A stretch of DNA of 32,866 nt from a virus: the IMG/VR virus record IMGVR_UViG_3300025706_000016. One strand, given 5' to 3'. The position numbers and the translations under genes are program-made. Under the pieces are notes generated by a model, which saw only the letters and a program-made list of their open reading frames with translations, did no database searches and was not told the DNA's origin. Position 1 is the stretch's first letter. Each line of letters begins with the position of its first letter. Shown here piece by piece: positions 8,458-32,536 of this stretch.

Positions 8458-10200
8458 ATGGCTATTTCTTATGGAAGTGAATATGTATTTAATAGTGCTT
8501 CTACAAGTGTTCCCAGATCTGCTGCTATAGATTCAACTCATTTTGTAGTAGTTTATAGAGATGCTGGAAACTCTTATTATGGAGTTGCTATTATAGGAAC
8601 TGTTGCAACAGACGGTTCTATTACTTATGGAAGTGAGTATGTATTTAATAGTGCTTCTACAAATAATATTGATGTTACAGTTTTAGATTCAACACATATA
8701 GCTATTTCTTATATGGATATTGGAAACTCTAACTATGGAACTGCTATTATAGGAACTATATCAAATGATGATGAAATAAGCTTTGGAAGCGAATATGTTT
8801 ATCGAAGTGTTGAAACTACATTCAATAGAATATCAACCTTAAGTTCAACCAAGTTTGTTATTGCTTTTTTTGGACCACAATCTTATTCAAACTATGGTAA
8901 TGCTATTATAGGAACTGTTTCATCTGGTAATCAAATATCATATGGAACATTAAATGAGTTTTCAGGTGATGCCACAACAGCAGATATAAAATGTAAAACT
9001 TTATCATCTTCTAAGTTTGTGGTTTGTTATAGAAAACCATCTGGAACTACCTATGGCTATTGTCGTATAGGTTCTGTTTCATCTTCAACTATTACTTATG
9101 GAACTGAAGTTTCTATTATATCTGAAGATACGAGAATCTCAGATTTGAATGTTTTAGATTCTACACATTTTGCAGTTGCCTATTATAGACAAGCATCTAC
9201 TTCGACTGGTTATATTAAAATAGGTGTAGTTTCAGACACTACTATTACATTGGGTGATGCTTATTCATATTCTTCATCTATCAACTTTATTACTACTACA
9301 GCTACATTAAGTTCGACTGAGTTTGCTGTTCAATATGGTAGTTATGGTAAAACAAAAATAGGAACTATATCCAATGATGATGAAATAAGTTTTGGGAGTG
9401 AAAGCTCAGCAAGTATAAGCACGGTCTCTAAACCAAACATATGTGCTTTAGATTCAACACATGTTGTTCTTGTTTTTGAAGACACTGGAAACTCTAACTA
9501 TGGAACTGCAGTAGTTGGAGCAACTGAAATAATCCTAAGCTTTGCAGCAACAATCGATTATAGCTATGATATAACAGCAACAGTTTCTCCAGCTCTATCT
9601 CTCTCTTCTACTATAAACTATGATTATGATTTATTAGCTGATACTTCCCTTAATCTCAATATATCCTCTCCAATAGATTACAATATTGATTATATATCCC
9701 CTATAACTGGAACATCATCATTCTCTTCCACTATTGATTATGATTATTCTATATTTAGTTTATTGCAAAATATATTATTAAGTGATTTTGTTATAGATTA
9801 TGGTGTAGATTATTCGGCAGATATAGTTGGAGAAGGTTCTATATCGGCTGTTATAGATTATGATTATGATATTCTCTCCCCAGTAAATACACATTATTCA
9901 ATAGCTCCTGTTATAGATTATGATATTGATTATGTTATTACATCTGAAGGTTCAGCTGATTTAGATGCTATAGTAGATTATGATTATGATTGGGGTAGTT
10001 GGTATGATTATCCAGGAAGAATAAATCGTTCTTATAGTTTTATCAATAATAGAAATATATCTTATTCTATTGGAAATAAGCAAGATAATAGAAATAGTAA
10101 AGCACAAATAACATCTATTGGTTTTACTCCTACAGAAACAGAAAATATGGCAAATACTATTCCTACTCTTGAAAACAGCAAACAAAGTAGAGGTAAATAA
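8458..10200 (+). CDS. Repeat protein: predicted 7-bladed beta-propeller plus C-terminal 20-aa IDYDYD tandem repeats
   Basis: Seven ~50-aa repeats (I[ST][YF]GSEYVF.S....LDSTHF.V.Y.D.GNSNYGTAIIGT) span aa 1-355. Eight 20-aa repeats follow. Confidence 0.85.
   Translation: MAISYGSEYVFNSASTSVPRSAAIDSTHFVVVYRDAGNSYYGVAIIGTVATDGSITYGSEYVFNSASTNNIDVTVLDSTHIAISYMDIGNSNYGTAIIGTISNDDEISFGSEYVYRSVETTFNRISTLSSTKFVIAFFGPQSYSNYGNAIIGTVSSGNQISYGTLNEFSGDATTADIKCKTLSSSKFVVCYRKPSGTTYGYCRIGSVSSSTITYGTEVSIISEDTRISDLNVLDSTHFAVAYYRQASTSTGYIKIGVVSDTTITLGDAYSYSSSINFITTTATLSSTEFAVQYGSYGKTKIGTISNDDEISFGSESSASISTVSKPNICALDSTHVVLVFEDTGNSNYGTAVVGATEIILSFAATIDYSYDITATVSPALSLSSTINYDYDLLADTSLNLNISSPIDYNIDYISPITGTSSFSSTIDYDYSIFSLLQNILLSDFVIDYGVDYSADIVGEGSISAVIDYDYDILSPVNTHYSIAPVIDYDIDYVITSEGSADLDAIVDYDYDWGSWYDYPGRINRSYSFINNRNISYSIGNKQDNRNSKAQITSIGFTPTETENMANTIPTLENSKQSRGK
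9550..10010 (+). repeat. Coding tandem repeat, period 60 nt, about 7.7 copies
   Basis: Units start at 9550, 9610, 9670, 9730, 9790, 9850, 9910 and 9970. Each begins with the core (a/g)t(a/c)gattatgattatgat, encoding IDYDYD. Confidence 0.9.
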
Positions 10201-30336: not shown

Positions 30337-31086
30337 ATGATAAACATCAGAAACAGTTTGCAACAATTCAACCCCCTTGTCATAGAAGATAAGGGTCTAA
30401 TTATCACTGGTTATGATAACTTAGAGGTATTAAAGAGTATGCCAGATGGGTGTGTGGATAACATATATATTGATCCGCCATTCCTCACGAACAAGACCTG
30501 GGAGAAGAACGGTTGGACTTTCCACGACCACTTTGATAATATGTGGGAATATCTTTATTTTTTAGGTGAGCGTCTTGTAGAAGCAAAAAGAGTTATGAGA
30601 GAGAGTATAATAACTTACGATGGAACTAACTTTTATAGAGATGGACTGGTTATATCTTATCAACCTCTCATAAATAAACTAACTACTGACTGGCTTTCCT
30701 CTAAGCAGAAGACAAAAGAGGTAAGTAAAGGTAAAAAGTTAGGTGCTTCCATCTTTGTCCATATTGACTATAGAACAAATAACGAAGTAAAGACATACCT
30801 TATGGACCCTTTGTTTGGTGAAGGTGCAGGTGCTCTTACCTTAGATGATGTTCAAACCTTGATGCAAAGTAAAATAGGTAAGCAACTACATACTCCAGTA
30901 TCTGTGCCTAAAGTAGATATAACAGATGGACCTTGTATTTGTATGGACTTCTTCGGAGGGTCACATAGTTATGCTGCTGCTGCCTGGAAAACAGGTAGGA
31001 GGTTTATATCGATAGAGTTAAATAAGTCAGAAGAGTTATTCTACAAACAGATAGGTGATACCAAGTTTGGTGAGGATAGAGAGTAA
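30337..31086 (+). CDS. Beta-class N6/N4 DNA methyltransferase core: motif IV plus motif I, without the usual middle region
   Basis: AAGGAG RBS. VDNIYIDPPF (motif IV), ASIFVHIDYR, and ICMDFFGGSHSYAAAAWKTGRRFISIELN (motifs I-II). I see no hE.ilw..K or HPTxKP segment. Confidence 0.75.
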   Translation: MINIRNSLQQFNPLVIEDKGLIITGYDNLEVLKSMPDGCVDNIYIDPPFLTNKTWEKNGWTFHDHFDNMWEYLYFLGERLVEAKRVMRESIITYDGTNFYRDGLVISYQPLINKLTTDWLSSKQKTKEVSKGKKLGASIFVHIDYRTNNEVKTYLMDPLFGEGAGALTLDDVQTLMQSKIGKQLHTPVSVPKVDITDGPCICMDFFGGSHSYAAAAWKTGRRFISIELNKSEELFYKQIGDTKFGEDRE

Positions 31087-31087
31087 T

Positions 31088-31501
31088 ATGTTCATAGGAC
31101 AATTCATCTGGAAGAATATAAAAGGTATAGGGTTTATTAAAAACCCCAAGAGTTTTACAATAGCAAACCATAACTATGACATCATATTGTGGTATGGAAA
31201 CCAATTTGTTTATGAAGAAGCAAAGTTTGACTTTCCTAAACAAGATGAAAAAGGTAAATATAGAATAACTACTTCTGGTGGCTGGAAATATAAAGATAAA
31301 GAAAGGTTGATAAAAAGATATGGTGATAGGTTGGTTTATACTAAAGCAGGTGAAATAGCAGGTACTAAAATATATGAAGGTAATAAGAGTTATATAGGTA
31401 TTAGATGTTTATTAGATGACTTGGGTGGGAATAATAAGATATACCCAACAGCAAAGCCATATAAATTATTAAGGAGGATAATATCTTTATCAACCAAATA
31501 G
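31088..31501 (+). CDS. Stand-alone middle (TRD / PTxKP) module of a beta-class methyltransferase, variant 1
   Basis: ATG 31088 lies 1 nt after the stop of the previous ORF. FIWKN, NHNYDIILWYGN, and a C-terminal YPTAKPYKLLRRIISLST. Confidence 0.65.
   Translation: MFIGQFIWKNIKGIGFIKNPKSFTIANHNYDIILWYGNQFVYEEAKFDFPKQDEKGKYRITTSGGWKYKDKERLIKRYGDRLVYTKAGEIAGTKIYEGNKSYIGIRCLLDDLGGNNKIYPTAKPYKLLRRIISLSTK
31441..31476 (+). repeat. 36-nt direct repeat, copy 1 (34/36 identical to 31869-31904)
   Basis: atacccaacagcaaagccatataaattattaaggag. Confidence 0.85.
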
Positions 31502-31503
31502 CA

Positions 31504-31929
31504 GTGAAAACAAGAGCACCTTGGGCATATGCCACATATCAAAAAAGAGCAAATGAAACTTGGATGGTTATATTATTTTACTCTCTTATTGATAACTATA
31601 TTTATGAGGCATATCATAGTAAGCATATAAAAAGAGAAATAGTATATAACTTGGAGACATCAGTAAAGTTAGGCAACTGTCCAGGTCATAATAAGAGAGA
31701 GTATTTAGGTATAACTCCTAAAACAAGATGGGGTTTTGGTGATGAGAAGATGACACAATATATTAAAGAAGGTAAAATATATAAACAAGGTAATAAGTTA
31801 AAGTTCAAAAACACAAGATATGGTTTTATAGAAACTGACTTATGGGAGTATGCCTCATCTAAACAAGGATACCCAACAGCAAAACCATATAAATTATTAA
31901 AGAGAGTAATTCAACTTTCTACAGTATAA
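31504..31929 (+). CDS. Stand-alone middle (TRD / PTxKP) module of a beta-class methyltransferase, variant 2
   Basis: GTG 31504 lies 2 nt after the upstream stop and has no SD. The C-terminus is YPTAKPYKLLKRVIQLST, while the rest of the body differs from variant 1. Confidence 0.55.
   Translation: MKTRAPWAYATYQKRANETWMVILFYSLIDNYIYEAYHSKHIKREIVYNLETSVKLGNCPGHNKREYLGITPKTRWGFGDEKMTQYIKEGKIYKQGNKLKFKNTRYGFIETDLWEYASSKQGYPTAKPYKLLKRVIQLSTV
31869..31904 (+). repeat. 36-nt direct repeat, copy 2
   Basis: atacccaacagcaaaaccatataaattattaaagag. Confidence 0.85.
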
Positions 31930-31939
31930 AGGAGTGGAT

Positions 31940-32536
31940 ATGGGAAAGAGAGGTTGTGCCATACCTCTCTTTTTTTATGCATATTTATTACCAAATATGA
32001 AATATAAAACCGTTTATGCAGATCCACCTTGGACATACAACAAATCTACAAAAAAAGCAGATGTTAGTTTAGTTTATGATACTATGTCTCTAAAAGATAT
32101 TTTAGATATGAAAGATTGGATAAATGAAATAACAGAGCAAGATTGTGTATTATTTTTATGGACTACATCACCAAAACTACCAGAAGGTTTAGAAACATTA
32201 AAAGCTTGGGGTTTTCAATATAAAACTTCTATTATTTGGAATAAGATAAAACCATATCTTGGTTATTATGTAAATCCGATTCACGAAATATGTTTGATTG
32301 GTGGTAAGGGTAAATCAACACCAGAAATATCAATGAAAGAAAGAAATCAAATACCAAGCATTATCACAGAAAGAAAAACATCTCATAGTAAAAAACCAGA
32401 TAAGATGTATGAAATAATAGAAACGCTTTATCCAACATATCCAAGAGTAGAACTTTTTGCAAGAAACACAAGACCAGGTTGGGATAGTTGGAACCCAACT
32501 GAAGGACTATATTTAAAGGAGGACACAAATGTTTAA
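31940..32536 (+). CDS. MT-A70-family N6-adenine DNA methyltransferase
   Basis: AAGGAG lies 5 nt before ATG 31940. The alternative in-frame ATG 31997 has no SD. YADPPW catalytic motif, HSKKPD, and ELFARNTRPGWDSWN. Confidence 0.8.
   Translation: MGKRGCAIPLFFYAYLLPNMKYKTVYADPPWTYNKSTKKADVSLVYDTMSLKDILDMKDWINEITEQDCVLFLWTTSPKLPEGLETLKAWGFQYKTSIIWNKIKPYLGYYVNPIHEICLIGGKGKSTPEISMKERNQIPSIITERKTSHSKKPDKMYEIIETLYPTYPRVELFARNTRPGWDSWNPTEGLYLKEDTNV
31945..31977 (+). terminator. Terminator-like hairpin plus T-run lying inside the first codons of the MT-A70 ORF
   Basis: agagaggt-tgtgccat-acctctct followed by tttttt. Confidence 0.45.

What the first reader, a model, noticed from the sequence alone, without database searches (positions are those of the whole stretch)
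30337..31929. Split, gene-level-permuted beta-class DNA methyltransferase with two alternative middle (TRD) modules
In beta-class N6/N4 enzymes the order within one polypeptide is: motif IV (DPPY), then the W.K / hE.ilw..K region, then the TRD, then HPTxKP..L...I, then motif I (D.F.GSG). Here ORF A (30337-31086) has DPPF (VDNIYIDPPF) and IFVHIDYR. After a short linker it jumps straight to ICMDFFGGSHSYAAAAWKTGRRFISIELN. The missing middle is found instead in the next two ORFs. B (31088-31501) has FIWKN, NHNYDIILWYGN and ...YPTAKPYKLLRRIISLST. C (31504-31929) has ...YPTAKPYKLLKRVIQLST. Both end exactly where motif I should follow. B and C differ throughout their bodies, the presumed target-recognition part, but share a 36-nt block (34/36 identical; 31441-31476 and 31869-31904). 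This suggests a core enzyme that assembles in trans with interchangeable specificity modules, analogous to HsdS logic but within a beta-class fold. Alternatively, recombination between the direct repeats could switch or delete modules. Split C5 enzymes such as M.AquI are known, but I am not aware of this arrangement being described.
Basis: partly seen in the sequence, partly recalled or inferred. Interest (0 to 1): 0.75.

Follow-up and report, generated by a model that had tools for sequence, protein, structure and literature searches.

The report
Phage methyltransferase split into core plus modules
An uncultivated phage encodes a DNA methyltransferase whose catalytic core and DNA-recognition part are separate genes, with two different recognition modules in tandem (one to four in relatives). 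This probably lets one enzyme core methylate several DNA motifs, and I found no description of it in the searchable literature.

Summary

- **Complementary pieces.** ORF A (30337-31086) carries motif IV (DPPF) and motif I (DFFGGS) of a beta-class N6/N4 DNA methyltransferase. It lacks strands beta6/beta7, the target-recognition domain (TRD) and motif X. ORFs B (31088-31501) and C supply exactly that missing piece.
- **Exact boundaries.** Against an HMM of 31 unsplit relatives, every core matches positions 7-115 and 264/270-301. Every module matches 116-265, with no overlap.
- **In-silico repair.** Re-inserting B or C into A turns two weak Pfam pieces into one contiguous PF01555 match (36 to 71 and 62 bits).
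- **Conservation.** Cores 45-91% identical occur in at least 10 distinct metagenomic phage loci and are followed by 1, 2 or 4 intact modules. Module ends are conserved and their middles are unrelated. Nine contigs (five sequence-compared) carry the window's layout, essentially identical.
- **The shared 36-nt block** is dual-coding: the C-terminal helix of one module, and in another frame the ribosome-binding site and MFIN start of the next.
- **Correction.** C's homologous start is at 31483 and is ATC, not ATG, so C may be weakly expressed or silent here.

Assembly in trans and distinct specificities are inferred, not shown.

The parts
30337..31086 (+). Core subunit A (249 aa): N-terminal half of a beta-class MTase through strand beta5 and helix alphaE, then a 37-residue private linker, then motif I, beta1 and beta2
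   Evidence: AF2 gives pLDDT 93.2 and pTM 0.89 with no beta6/beta7. The Foldseek top hits are all beta-class MTases, including CcrM, M.RsrI, M.PvuII and M.MboIIA.
30472..30483 (+). Motif IV DPPF (residues 46-49), the catalytic and target-base pocket
   Evidence: The motif is DPP[YF] in 21 of 24 aligned cores.
30826..30936 (+). Linker (residues 164-200, GALTLDDVQTLMQSKIGKQLHTPVSVPKVDITDG) that replaces the excised beta6-beta7-TRD-motif X segment
   Evidence: It has no counterpart in the canonical HMM, which jumps from position 113 to 270. It is conserved among cores and confidently modelled, with a helix at 169-180.
30946..30963 (+). Motif I DFFGGS (residues 204-209), the AdoMet-binding loop after beta1
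   Evidence: It aligns to motif I of M.PvuII, EcoP15I Mod and CcrM.
31070..31087 (+). Ribosome-binding region for B (GTGAGGATAGAGAGTAAT), lying in the last codons of A. A's stop TAA is 1 nt before B's ATG, which implies translational coupling.
31088..31501 (+). Module B (137 aa): beta6 (FIGQFIWKN), beta7 (YDIILWYG), TRD, then motif X (YPTAKP) and its helix, ending at ...ISLSTK
   Evidence: Matches canonical HMM positions 116-265 and M.RsrI residues 136-236 through the module profile. AF2 shows a confident TRD core at 51-96 and low-confidence terminal strands and helix.
31441..31482 (+). Junction block 1. It codes I-YPTAKPYKLLRRII of B and contains the SD AAGGAGG (31471-31477) for module C.
31483..31929 (+). 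Module C (148 codons from ATC at 31483; the first canonical start is GTG at 31504): beta6 (FINQIAV), beta7 (MVILFYS), a different TRD, YPTAKP and helix
   Evidence: Matches canonical HMM 116-265 only when read from 31483. Homologous to L142 module 4 and L001 module 2, which start with ATG. The ATC is present in all five sequence-compared loci.
31869..31910 (+). Junction block 2 (C-terminal YPTAKPYKLLKRVI of C). It is 90% identical to block 1 and has no start codon for a further module, as in other terminal modules.
31940..32536 (+). Neighbouring, independent MT-A70-family methyltransferase (DPPW). It is not part of the split enzyme.
   Evidence: Pfam PF05063, E 3e-30. Start as called in L149.

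Best explanation
This is a naturally split beta-class (PF01555) amino-DNA methyltransferase of a phage.

**The two kinds of subunit.** Gene A makes a catalytic and AdoMet-binding core with motifs IV-VI and I-II. The segment from beta6 to the motif X helix has been cut out of it and replaced by a short structured linker. That segment (beta6, beta7, TRD, YPTxKP and helix) is encoded downstream as one or more small, translationally coupled genes.

**Proposed assembly.** Each module is proposed to dock on the core by fragment complementation. Its N-terminal beta-hairpin would extend the exposed beta5 edge of the core sheet. Its C-terminal motif X helix would pack next to motif I. Together they would rebuild the seven-stranded fold. 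The TRD of the module would then set the DNA sequence that is methylated, probably at N6 of adenine given DPPF.

**Proposed use.** With several modules, one core would yield several specificities. This is a compact way for the phage to pre-empt several host restriction systems.

**The junction.** The conserved ~50-nt junction encodes both the end of one module and the SD and start of the next. It also gives a homology patch through which modules can be gained, lost or exchanged.

**Shown versus inferred.**
- Shown: the exact complementary anatomy, its conservation, the coupling signals and the module diversity.
- Inferred: physical assembly, activity, distinct specificities and the anti-restriction role.
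- In this window B should be fully expressed. C has an ATC start and may be weakly expressed or recently silenced.
For: - **Exact complementarity.** All 8 cores match canonical HMM positions 7-115 and 264/270-301. All 16 modules match 116-265 end to end.
- **In-silico re-insertion.** It gives a single PF01555 match over profile positions 1-214 of 221: 71.3 bits for A+B, 61.5 for A+C and 111.3 for the L005 pair. A alone gives 36.3 bits in two pieces.
- **An unsplit relative.** P0067 shows the same sequence blocks in the canonical order.
- **Solved structures.** A aligns to M.PvuII residues 18-67 and 249-283. The module profile aligns to M.RsrI residues 136-236.
- **Structure models.** The AF2 core (pLDDT 93) has beta4, beta5, beta1 and beta2 but no beta6/beta7. 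Its fold hits are all beta-class MTases. In the AF2 module, the TRD is confident and the docking elements are poorly determined on their own.
- **Conservation.** There are 23 core clusters of about 203-257 aa at 45-91% identity. Of 12 distinct loci, 10 carry an intact (or contig-end-truncated) module directly downstream, with 1, 2 or 4 per locus where the array is complete.
- **Module diversity.** About 45 stand-alone module clusters appear among the best 60 hits in 1.84 billion representatives. Module middles are 10-33% identical within one phage, while the last 20 residues are 60-80% identical.
- **Coupling signals.** Every internal junction carries an SD and ATG-TTT-ATC-AAC, overlapped with the codons R-I-I-C-L-S-T.
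- **Possible co-adaptation.** The module tail charge (LLER versus LL[KR]R) tracks charge changes in the core linker.
- **Not an artefact.** Nine contigs carry the layout; the five sequence-compared loci are essentially identical to the window.
Against: - No protein-protein prediction or experiment was available.
- The core alone is predicted as a compact, confident fold including the linker, so it might be stable and even active without a partner.
- C lacks an ATG.
- Three core lineages have DILY instead of DPPY and an altered motif I. The core may not always be catalytic.
- Two loci (L004, L064) keep an intact core next to a decayed or truncated module.
- B and C score below Pfam's gathering threshold on their own.
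- The host and methylation targets are unknown.
Confidence: 0.7

Rival explanations
1. The core is a self-sufficient methyltransferase, either non-specific like M.EcoGII or with its own specificity. The small ORFs are accessory proteins, such as regulators, DNA-binding adaptors or inhibitors, rather than obligatory parts of the fold.
For: The AF2 model of A alone is compact and confident, including the linker. L004 and L064 retain an intact core with a decayed module.
Against: A lacks beta6/beta7 and the motif X loop and helix that line the cofactor and target-base pocket in every solved beta-class enzyme it aligns to. The modules contain exactly these catalytic-fold elements, not just a DNA-binding domain. 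Their boundaries abut the core's breakpoints to the residue.
Confidence: 0.1
2. It is a cassette store. Only the first module, or only modules with an ATG, are used at any time. The downstream copies are silent spares that are moved or activated by recombination or point mutation at the conserved junctions, giving switching rather than simultaneous multispecificity.
For: Conserved ~42-53-nt direct repeats sit at every junction. Module number and order vary between relatives. In the window C has ATC where expressed modules have ATG, and a single G-to-C change (Cys TGT to Ser TCT in B) does this. L146 has a decayed ATC-started vestige.
Against: In L001, L142, L144 and L063 every internal module has its own SD and ATG in a coupled arrangement, so all should be translated. 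The repeats are direct, so recombination deletes or duplicates rather than switches. No recombinase gene was seen next to the locus. All five sequence-compared loci are identical at the B/C junction, with no variants.
Confidence: 0.1
3. It is a decaying methyltransferase locus. A is a deletion derivative, and B and C are leftover fragments of other methyltransferase genes with no function.
For: B and C are below Pfam's gathering score. C lacks an ATG. Some relatives show truncated modules (L004, L064, L154).
Against: The same breakpoints are conserved down to 45% core identity in at least 10 distinct loci. The module ORFs are intact in AT-rich DNA, where I estimate that a 148-codon open frame has a chance of roughly 1e-5. 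Their termini, SD and start signals are conserved while their middles diverge. There are dozens of distinct stand-alone module clusters.
Confidence: 0.05
4. The ORFs are joined during translation, by programmed -1 or +1 frameshifting at the overlaps. This would give a circularly permuted single-chain enzyme or a multi-TRD polyprotein.
For: Each successive module lies in the -1 frame relative to the previous one and overlaps it by 19 nt. An SD-like element sits just upstream.
Against: There is no slippery heptamer at the junctions. A conserved ATG lies exactly at the homologous N-terminus of every module with canonical SD spacing. A module-to-module fusion has no counterpart in the canonical chain order.
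Confidence: 0.03

Closest known systems
Canonical single-chain beta-class N6A/N4C DNA methyltransferases (Pfam PF01555; M.RsrI, M.MboIIA, M.PvuII, CcrM, M.BceJIV)
   Same: All sequence motifs are the same: IV DPP[YF], VIII-like (i)iW, 'dvW', motif X [HY]PTxKP plus helix, and motif I DxFxGS. These enzymes are the top fold hits for the core.
   Different: Here the beta6-to-motif X segment is removed from the catalytic chain, replaced by a private linker, and encoded as 1-4 separate genes downstream. No single polypeptide contains a complete fold.
Type I restriction-modification HsdM/HsdS, including one HsdM served by alternative HsdS subunits in H. pylori (PMC3936762)
   Same: The logic matches: a catalytic subunit without its own specificity plus exchangeable specificity subunits, coupled translation of adjacent genes, and conserved regions flanking variable TRDs that promote exchange.
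   Different: HsdM is gamma-class with a complete fold, and HsdS is an unrelated two-TRD coiled-coil protein. Here the 'specificity subunit' also carries two strands and a helix of the catalytic fold itself. B and C gave no Pfam hit other than PF01555, so no HsdS homology was seen.
Natural split C5-cytosine methyltransferases M.AquI and M.EcoHK31I (discussed in PMC2836561 and PMC3404938)
   Same: A DNA methyltransferase fold divided between two polypeptides that must associate.
   Different: They belong to a different family (C5, PF00145). They have one fixed partner each, no array of alternative TRD modules, and a different split topology.
Multispecific C5 methyltransferases of Bacillus phages SPR, phi3T and rho11s (from my own knowledge, not checked here)
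   Same: A phage enzyme with one catalytic core and several TRDs, each giving a different target, used against host restriction.
   Different: Their TRDs are in tandem inside one polypeptide of a C5 enzyme. Here they are separate polypeptides of a beta-class amino-methyltransferase.
Type III Mod and other beta-class enzymes with hypervariable, recombining central TRDs (PMC1557822, PMC3467074)
   Same: A variable TRD lies between conserved flanks in a beta-class fold, and the flanks serve as recombination sites for TRD exchange.
   Different: Those are allelic variants of one gene with one TRD per protein. Here several TRD-bearing modules coexist as separate genes.
Phages with several complete methyltransferase genes in a row (for example Flavobacterium phage tooticki6-1, MN812240)
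   Same: The presumed purpose is the same, multi-motif self-methylation. The TRD-region sequences are related.
   Different: Each gene there is a complete enzyme of about 245-280 aa. The split system reuses one core and adds about 100-150 aa per extra specificity.

Membership tests
Beta-class amino-DNA methyltransferase (PF01555 N6_N4_Mtase) | Motif IV (D/N/S)PP(Y/F/W) | tested here: met
   DPPF at A residues 46-49. It aligns to motif IV of EcoP15I Mod, M.PvuII and CcrM.
Beta-class amino-DNA methyltransferase (PF01555 N6_N4_Mtase) | Motif I (DxFxGSG) AdoMet loop C-terminal to motif IV | tested here: met
   DFFGGS at A residues 204-209 aligns to Pfam profile 184-214 and to motif I of solved enzymes. 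The third glycine is replaced (GGSHS).
Beta-class amino-DNA methyltransferase (PF01555 N6_N4_Mtase) | Motif X [HY]PTxKP plus helix and strands beta6/beta7 present | tested here: met
   They are present only in B and C (YPTAKP; FIWKN and ILWYG), that is, in trans.
Beta-class amino-DNA methyltransferase (PF01555 N6_N4_Mtase) | Order IV - TRD - X - I within one polypeptide, giving a complete seven-stranded fold in one chain | tested here: not met
   A skips HMM positions 116-263/269, and the modules cover only 116-265. The AF2 model of A has no beta6/beta7.
Beta-class amino-DNA methyltransferase (PF01555 N6_N4_Mtase) | Methyl transfer to N6-A or N4-C of DNA | not testable with these tools
   This needs expression plus SMRT or ONT sequencing, or an in vitro assay.
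Type I specificity subunit (HsdS, PF01420) | Two TRDs separated by conserved coiled-coil regions; Methylase_S homology | tested here: not met
   Pfam scans of B and C gave only PF01555. The module profile aligns to the interior of beta-class MTases.
Split C5 methyltransferases (M.AquI / M.EcoHK31I type) | C5-MTase motifs (PCQ, ENV; PF00145) | tested here: not met
   No PF00145 hit for A, B or C.
MT-A70 family | PF05063 domain with DPPW | tested here: not met
   Only the neighbouring gene D (31940-32536) matches PF05063. A, B and C do not.

The most novel reading that the evidence does not exclude
A natural plug-and-play DNA methyltransferase. One catalytic core is completed in trans by any of up to four co-encoded modules that carry both the TRD and the missing pieces of the catalytic fold, giving several sequence specificities from one active site. 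Beta-class enzymes are thought to work as dimers, in which one protomer reads and the other methylates (PMC7544214). Mixed core-module dimers could therefore add combinatorial specificities. The dual-coding junction would act as a built-in exchange site for modules between phages.
Probability: 0.55. Interest if true: 0.85.

Novelty: new variant of a known kind. Interest (0 to 1): 0.8.

Why it matters
- **New organisation.** It would be the first beta-class amino-methyltransferase known to separate catalysis from recognition into different polypeptides. It would also be the first case where the exchangeable subunit carries part of the Rossmann-like fold itself.
- **Annotation.** Many metagenomic 'fragment' methyltransferase ORFs of 80-150 aa are currently unannotated or called hypothetical. 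This architecture would explain them.
- **Phage biology.** It shows a compact phage answer to multiple host restriction systems, at about 100-150 aa per added specificity instead of a whole gene.
- **Engineering.** It offers a natural scaffold for programmable methyltransferases by module swapping.
- **Gene structure.** The overlapping junction is a neat example of dual coding that ties gene expression to modular recombination.

Tried and rejected
- **Fold search with module B alone.** No significant PDB match. This is expected for a fragment with pLDDT 72.6.
- **Single-sequence homology search with B.** It found only itself. A profile of 16 modules was needed.
- **INPHARED phages.** No near-DNA match and no protein match to A. 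Modules hit only the interior of ordinary methyltransferase genes.
- **IMG/VR.** Only one related contig was found, by protein search and by junction pattern; a looser junction pattern found none.
- **GTDB genomes.** Four junction-pattern hits were chance matches with no methyltransferase motifs. No prophage copy was found and no host could be inferred.
- **Human-gut contigs.** Many match A residues 29-228 at about 22% identity. The one inspected (L074) encodes an ordinary compact unsplit methyltransferase, so I judged them not relevant.
- **P0144 (1598 aa, three module matches).** It contains three complete methyltransferase units fused in tandem, not a multi-TRD protein.
- **BFVD viral structures.** None has the core-only architecture. 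The best TM-score is 0.40.
- **Other scans.** No tRNA or Rfam hits in the window.
- **Literature.** Six full-text searches found no description of this arrangement. The 'split DNA methyltransferases' mentioned in PMC4335053 cite the H. pylori methylome paper (PMC3936762), whose passages I read concern Type I and frameshifted systems; none was a beta-class split.
Full report
**1. What is in the sequence.**

The window is a phage genome segment with all long ORFs on the + strand. It includes a terminase, a DnaB-like helicase and a replication initiator. At 30337-32536 lie four tightly packed genes.
- A: 30337-31086, 249 aa.
- B: 31088-31501, 137 aa. Its ATG lies 1 nt after A's TAA and is preceded by GTGAGGA.
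- C: ends at 31929.
- D: 31940-32536, an ordinary MT-A70-family methyltransferase (Pfam E 3e-30).

**2. Complementarity.**

- **Pfam.** PF01555 hits A in two separated pieces, the C-terminal one at profile positions 184-214 of 221. It hits B at 92-180 and C at 85-179.
- **Solved structures.** A aligns to beta-class enzymes in two blocks. Examples are M.PvuII 18-67 and 249-283, EcoP15I Mod 96-162 and 431-469, and CcrM 20-92 and 217-247. A profile of 40 modules aligns to the interior of M.RsrI (136-236) and M.BceJIV.
- **Custom HMM.** I built an HMM from 31 unsplit relatives recovered in the searches (317 positions). All 8 cores examined match positions 7-115 and 264/270-301. All 16 modules match 116-265 from residue 2 to the penultimate residue. 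The pieces abut without overlap.
- **In-silico re-insertion.** Pasting B or C between A163 and A196 turns two weak pieces (36.3 bits) into one contiguous PF01555 match over profile 1-214. The scores are 71.3 bits with B, 61.5 with C, and 111.3 for the L005 pair. Concatenation in the natural gene order gives 51.2 bits in three pieces.
- **An unsplit relative.** P0067 shows the same blocks in canonical order...SLFVHLDWR..IFG..N-FINEIIW...YPTQKPLALLERII...-DIVADFF.

**3. Structure.**

- **Core.** AlphaFold2 on A with 24 homologues gives pLDDT 93.2 and pTM 0.89. The model has strands at 42-45 (before DPPF), 133-141 (beta5), 201-205 (beta1) and 222-227 (beta2). The linker is confidently modelled, with a helix at 169-180. 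There is no beta6/beta7 hairpin.
- **Core fold hits.** The PDB hits with E below 0.001 are all beta-class methyltransferases (CcrM, TTHA0409, M.RsrI, rotifer N4CMT, M.PvuII, M.MboIIA). TM-scores are only 0.32-0.41, as expected for an incomplete and rearranged fold. No BFVD viral structure shares the architecture.
- **Module.** B modelled with 40 modules gives pLDDT 72.6. The TRD core (51-96) is confident. The two N-terminal strands (4-9, 30-35) and the C-terminal helix (124-135) are poorly determined. This fits elements that need a partner.

**4. Comparative evidence.**

- **Cores.** A has 23 homologue clusters at 45-91% identity, nearly all 233-257 aa and two of 203 aa. All have the same breakpoints and a conserved linker.
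- **Module counts.** Four modules follow the core in L001 and L142. Two follow in the window and L144. One follows in L003, L005 and L146. L063 has at least two, the second running off the contig. L145 and L154/L155 have at least one, cut by the contig end.
- **Decay.** L004 and L064 show a decayed or truncated module.
- **Module shape.** Modules share MFINxI......IL.Y[GS]...W... and YPTQKPYKLLERIICLST. Their middles are 10-33% identical within a phage and fall into families shared between phages. Window C resembles L142 module 4 (48%) and L001 module 2. Window B resembles L001 module 4.
- **Breadth.** A profile search of 1.84 billion representatives returns about 45 stand-alone modules (79-154 aa) among the best 60 hits. 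Ordinary full-length enzymes follow.
- **Robustness.** Nine contigs carry the window's layout. In the five sequence-compared loci (ENA, JGI, Logan) A-B-C-D is identical to the window, apart from two substitutions in D in one locus and one divergent contig end.

**5. The junction.**

Every internal junction reads ...AAA CTA TTG GAG AGA ATA ATA TGT TTA TCA ACn... In one frame this is K-L-L-E-R-I-I-C-L-S-T. In the other it is GGAG, a spacer, then ATG-TTT-ATC-AAC (M-F-I-N).
- The Cys codon TGT supplies the ATG of the next module.
- Most terminal modules have S, N, L, K or Q at that position and so carry no ATG; L005's single module keeps Cys.
- The 'shared 36-nt block' is therefore a dual-coding junction. 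It is also the only long homology between modules, so it is a plausible site for module gain, loss and exchange.
- Junction sequences look homogenised within a genome: YPTAKP in both window modules, LLER throughout L001, LL[KR]R throughout L142.
- The core columns that separate E-type from K/R-type partners cluster in the linker. For example, position 197 is D/D/S/D versus Q/Q/Q/K. This is suggestive of co-adaptation, but it rests on only eight cores and is confounded by phylogeny.

**6. The status of C in this window.**

- B ends RRIISLSTK, with TCT rather than TGT. C's homologous start at 31483 is therefore ATC, behind a perfect AAGGAGG with 5-nt spacing.
- Read from 31483, C covers HMM position 116 onward. 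Read from the GTG at 31504 it would lack strand beta6.
- C is intact over 148 codons. I estimate the chance of such an open frame in DNA of this composition at about 1e-5.
- C is therefore either made at a low level from a near-cognate start or was silenced very recently. L146 shows what later decay looks like: an ATC followed by a 35-codon vestige.

**7. Interpretation.**

The best reading (confidence 0.7) is a split beta-class methyltransferase. One catalytic core is completed in trans by alternative modules. Each module carries beta6, beta7, a TRD and motif X, and each is expected to give a different target.
- The product is probably m6A, given DPPF.
- The role is probably phage self-protection. 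The cluster sits between the replication genes and the packaging genes, next to another methyltransferase. Cultured phages solve the same problem with several complete methyltransferase genes.
- Rivals: a self-sufficient core with accessory proteins (0.1), a silent-cassette switching system (0.1), a decaying locus (0.05), and frameshift fusion (0.03).

**8. Novelty.**

- Six full-text searches found no description of this arrangement.
- A recent review of beta-class enzymes contains none of my search terms for split or two-polypeptide enzymes.
- The nearest precedents are Type I HsdM with alternative HsdS subunits (PMC3936762), split C5 enzymes M.AquI and M.EcoHK31I (PMC2836561, PMC3404938), and, from my own knowledge, the multispecific C5 enzymes of Bacillus phages.
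- A has no match in GenBank phages. Its only NCBIfam hits are far-sub-threshold partial matches to generic adenine/DNA methyltransferase models.
- I rate it a new variant of a known kind. REBASE could not be consulted, so prior unpublished annotation cannot be excluded.

Noticed in passing
window 31940-32536: A complete MT-A70-family (DPPW) methyltransferase gene directly follows module C. The phage therefore carries two unrelated methyltransferase systems side by side.
   Followed up: partly
P0019, P0020, P0023; loci L003 4001-4738 and L154 1429-2178: Three core lineages have DILY instead of DPPY at motif IV and D[SCT][WF]xGS instead of DFFGGS at motif I. They still keep a downstream module. 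They may be catalytically dead or altered cores.
   Followed up: partly
L003 5123-6463: In one relative the split system is followed by a 446-aa ParB_N-PF01555 fusion methyltransferase with all motifs in the canonical order.
   Followed up: no
core alignment, window A residues 177, 182, 183, 194, 196, 197, 247: Core positions that separate partners of LLER-type modules from partners of LL[KR]R-type modules cluster in the linker and C-terminal tail. Position 197 is acidic with basic module tails and Q/K with acidic tails. This may be interface co-adaptation, but it rests on only 8 cores and is confounded by phylogeny.
   Followed up: partly
window 31517-31555 and 32025-32063: A 39-nt stretch in the N-terminus of C (APWAYATYQKRAN) is 74% identical to the DPPW region of the MT-A70 gene D (DPPWTYNKSTKKAD). 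This is probably chance in AT-rich DNA.
   Followed up: no
window 8462-8798: A 156-nt (52-codon) tandem repeat, about 2 copies at 74-78% identity, lies inside the 580-aa ORF 8458-10200, which I did not characterise.
   Followed up: no
L146 3201-3308: After the single module of this relative there is a 35-codon vestige beginning ATC-TTT-ATC-AAC (IFINS...). This shows that loss of the ATG precedes decay of a downstream module.
   Followed up: yes
L154 493-1086: An HNH/NUMOD homing-endonuclease-like gene lies just upstream of a DILY-type core in one relative.
   Followed up: no
L062 (= L152) 1-100: The first ~100 nt of this otherwise identical contig do not match the window. It is probably a chimeric or misassembled contig end.
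   Followed up: yes
L156 (Flavobacterium phage tooticki6-1, MN812240 1669-6192): Four complete methyltransferase genes (three PF01555, one PF00145) lie within about 4.5 kb, three of them adjacent. This is the conventional multi-gene route to multi-motif protection and a useful contrast.
   Followed up: partly
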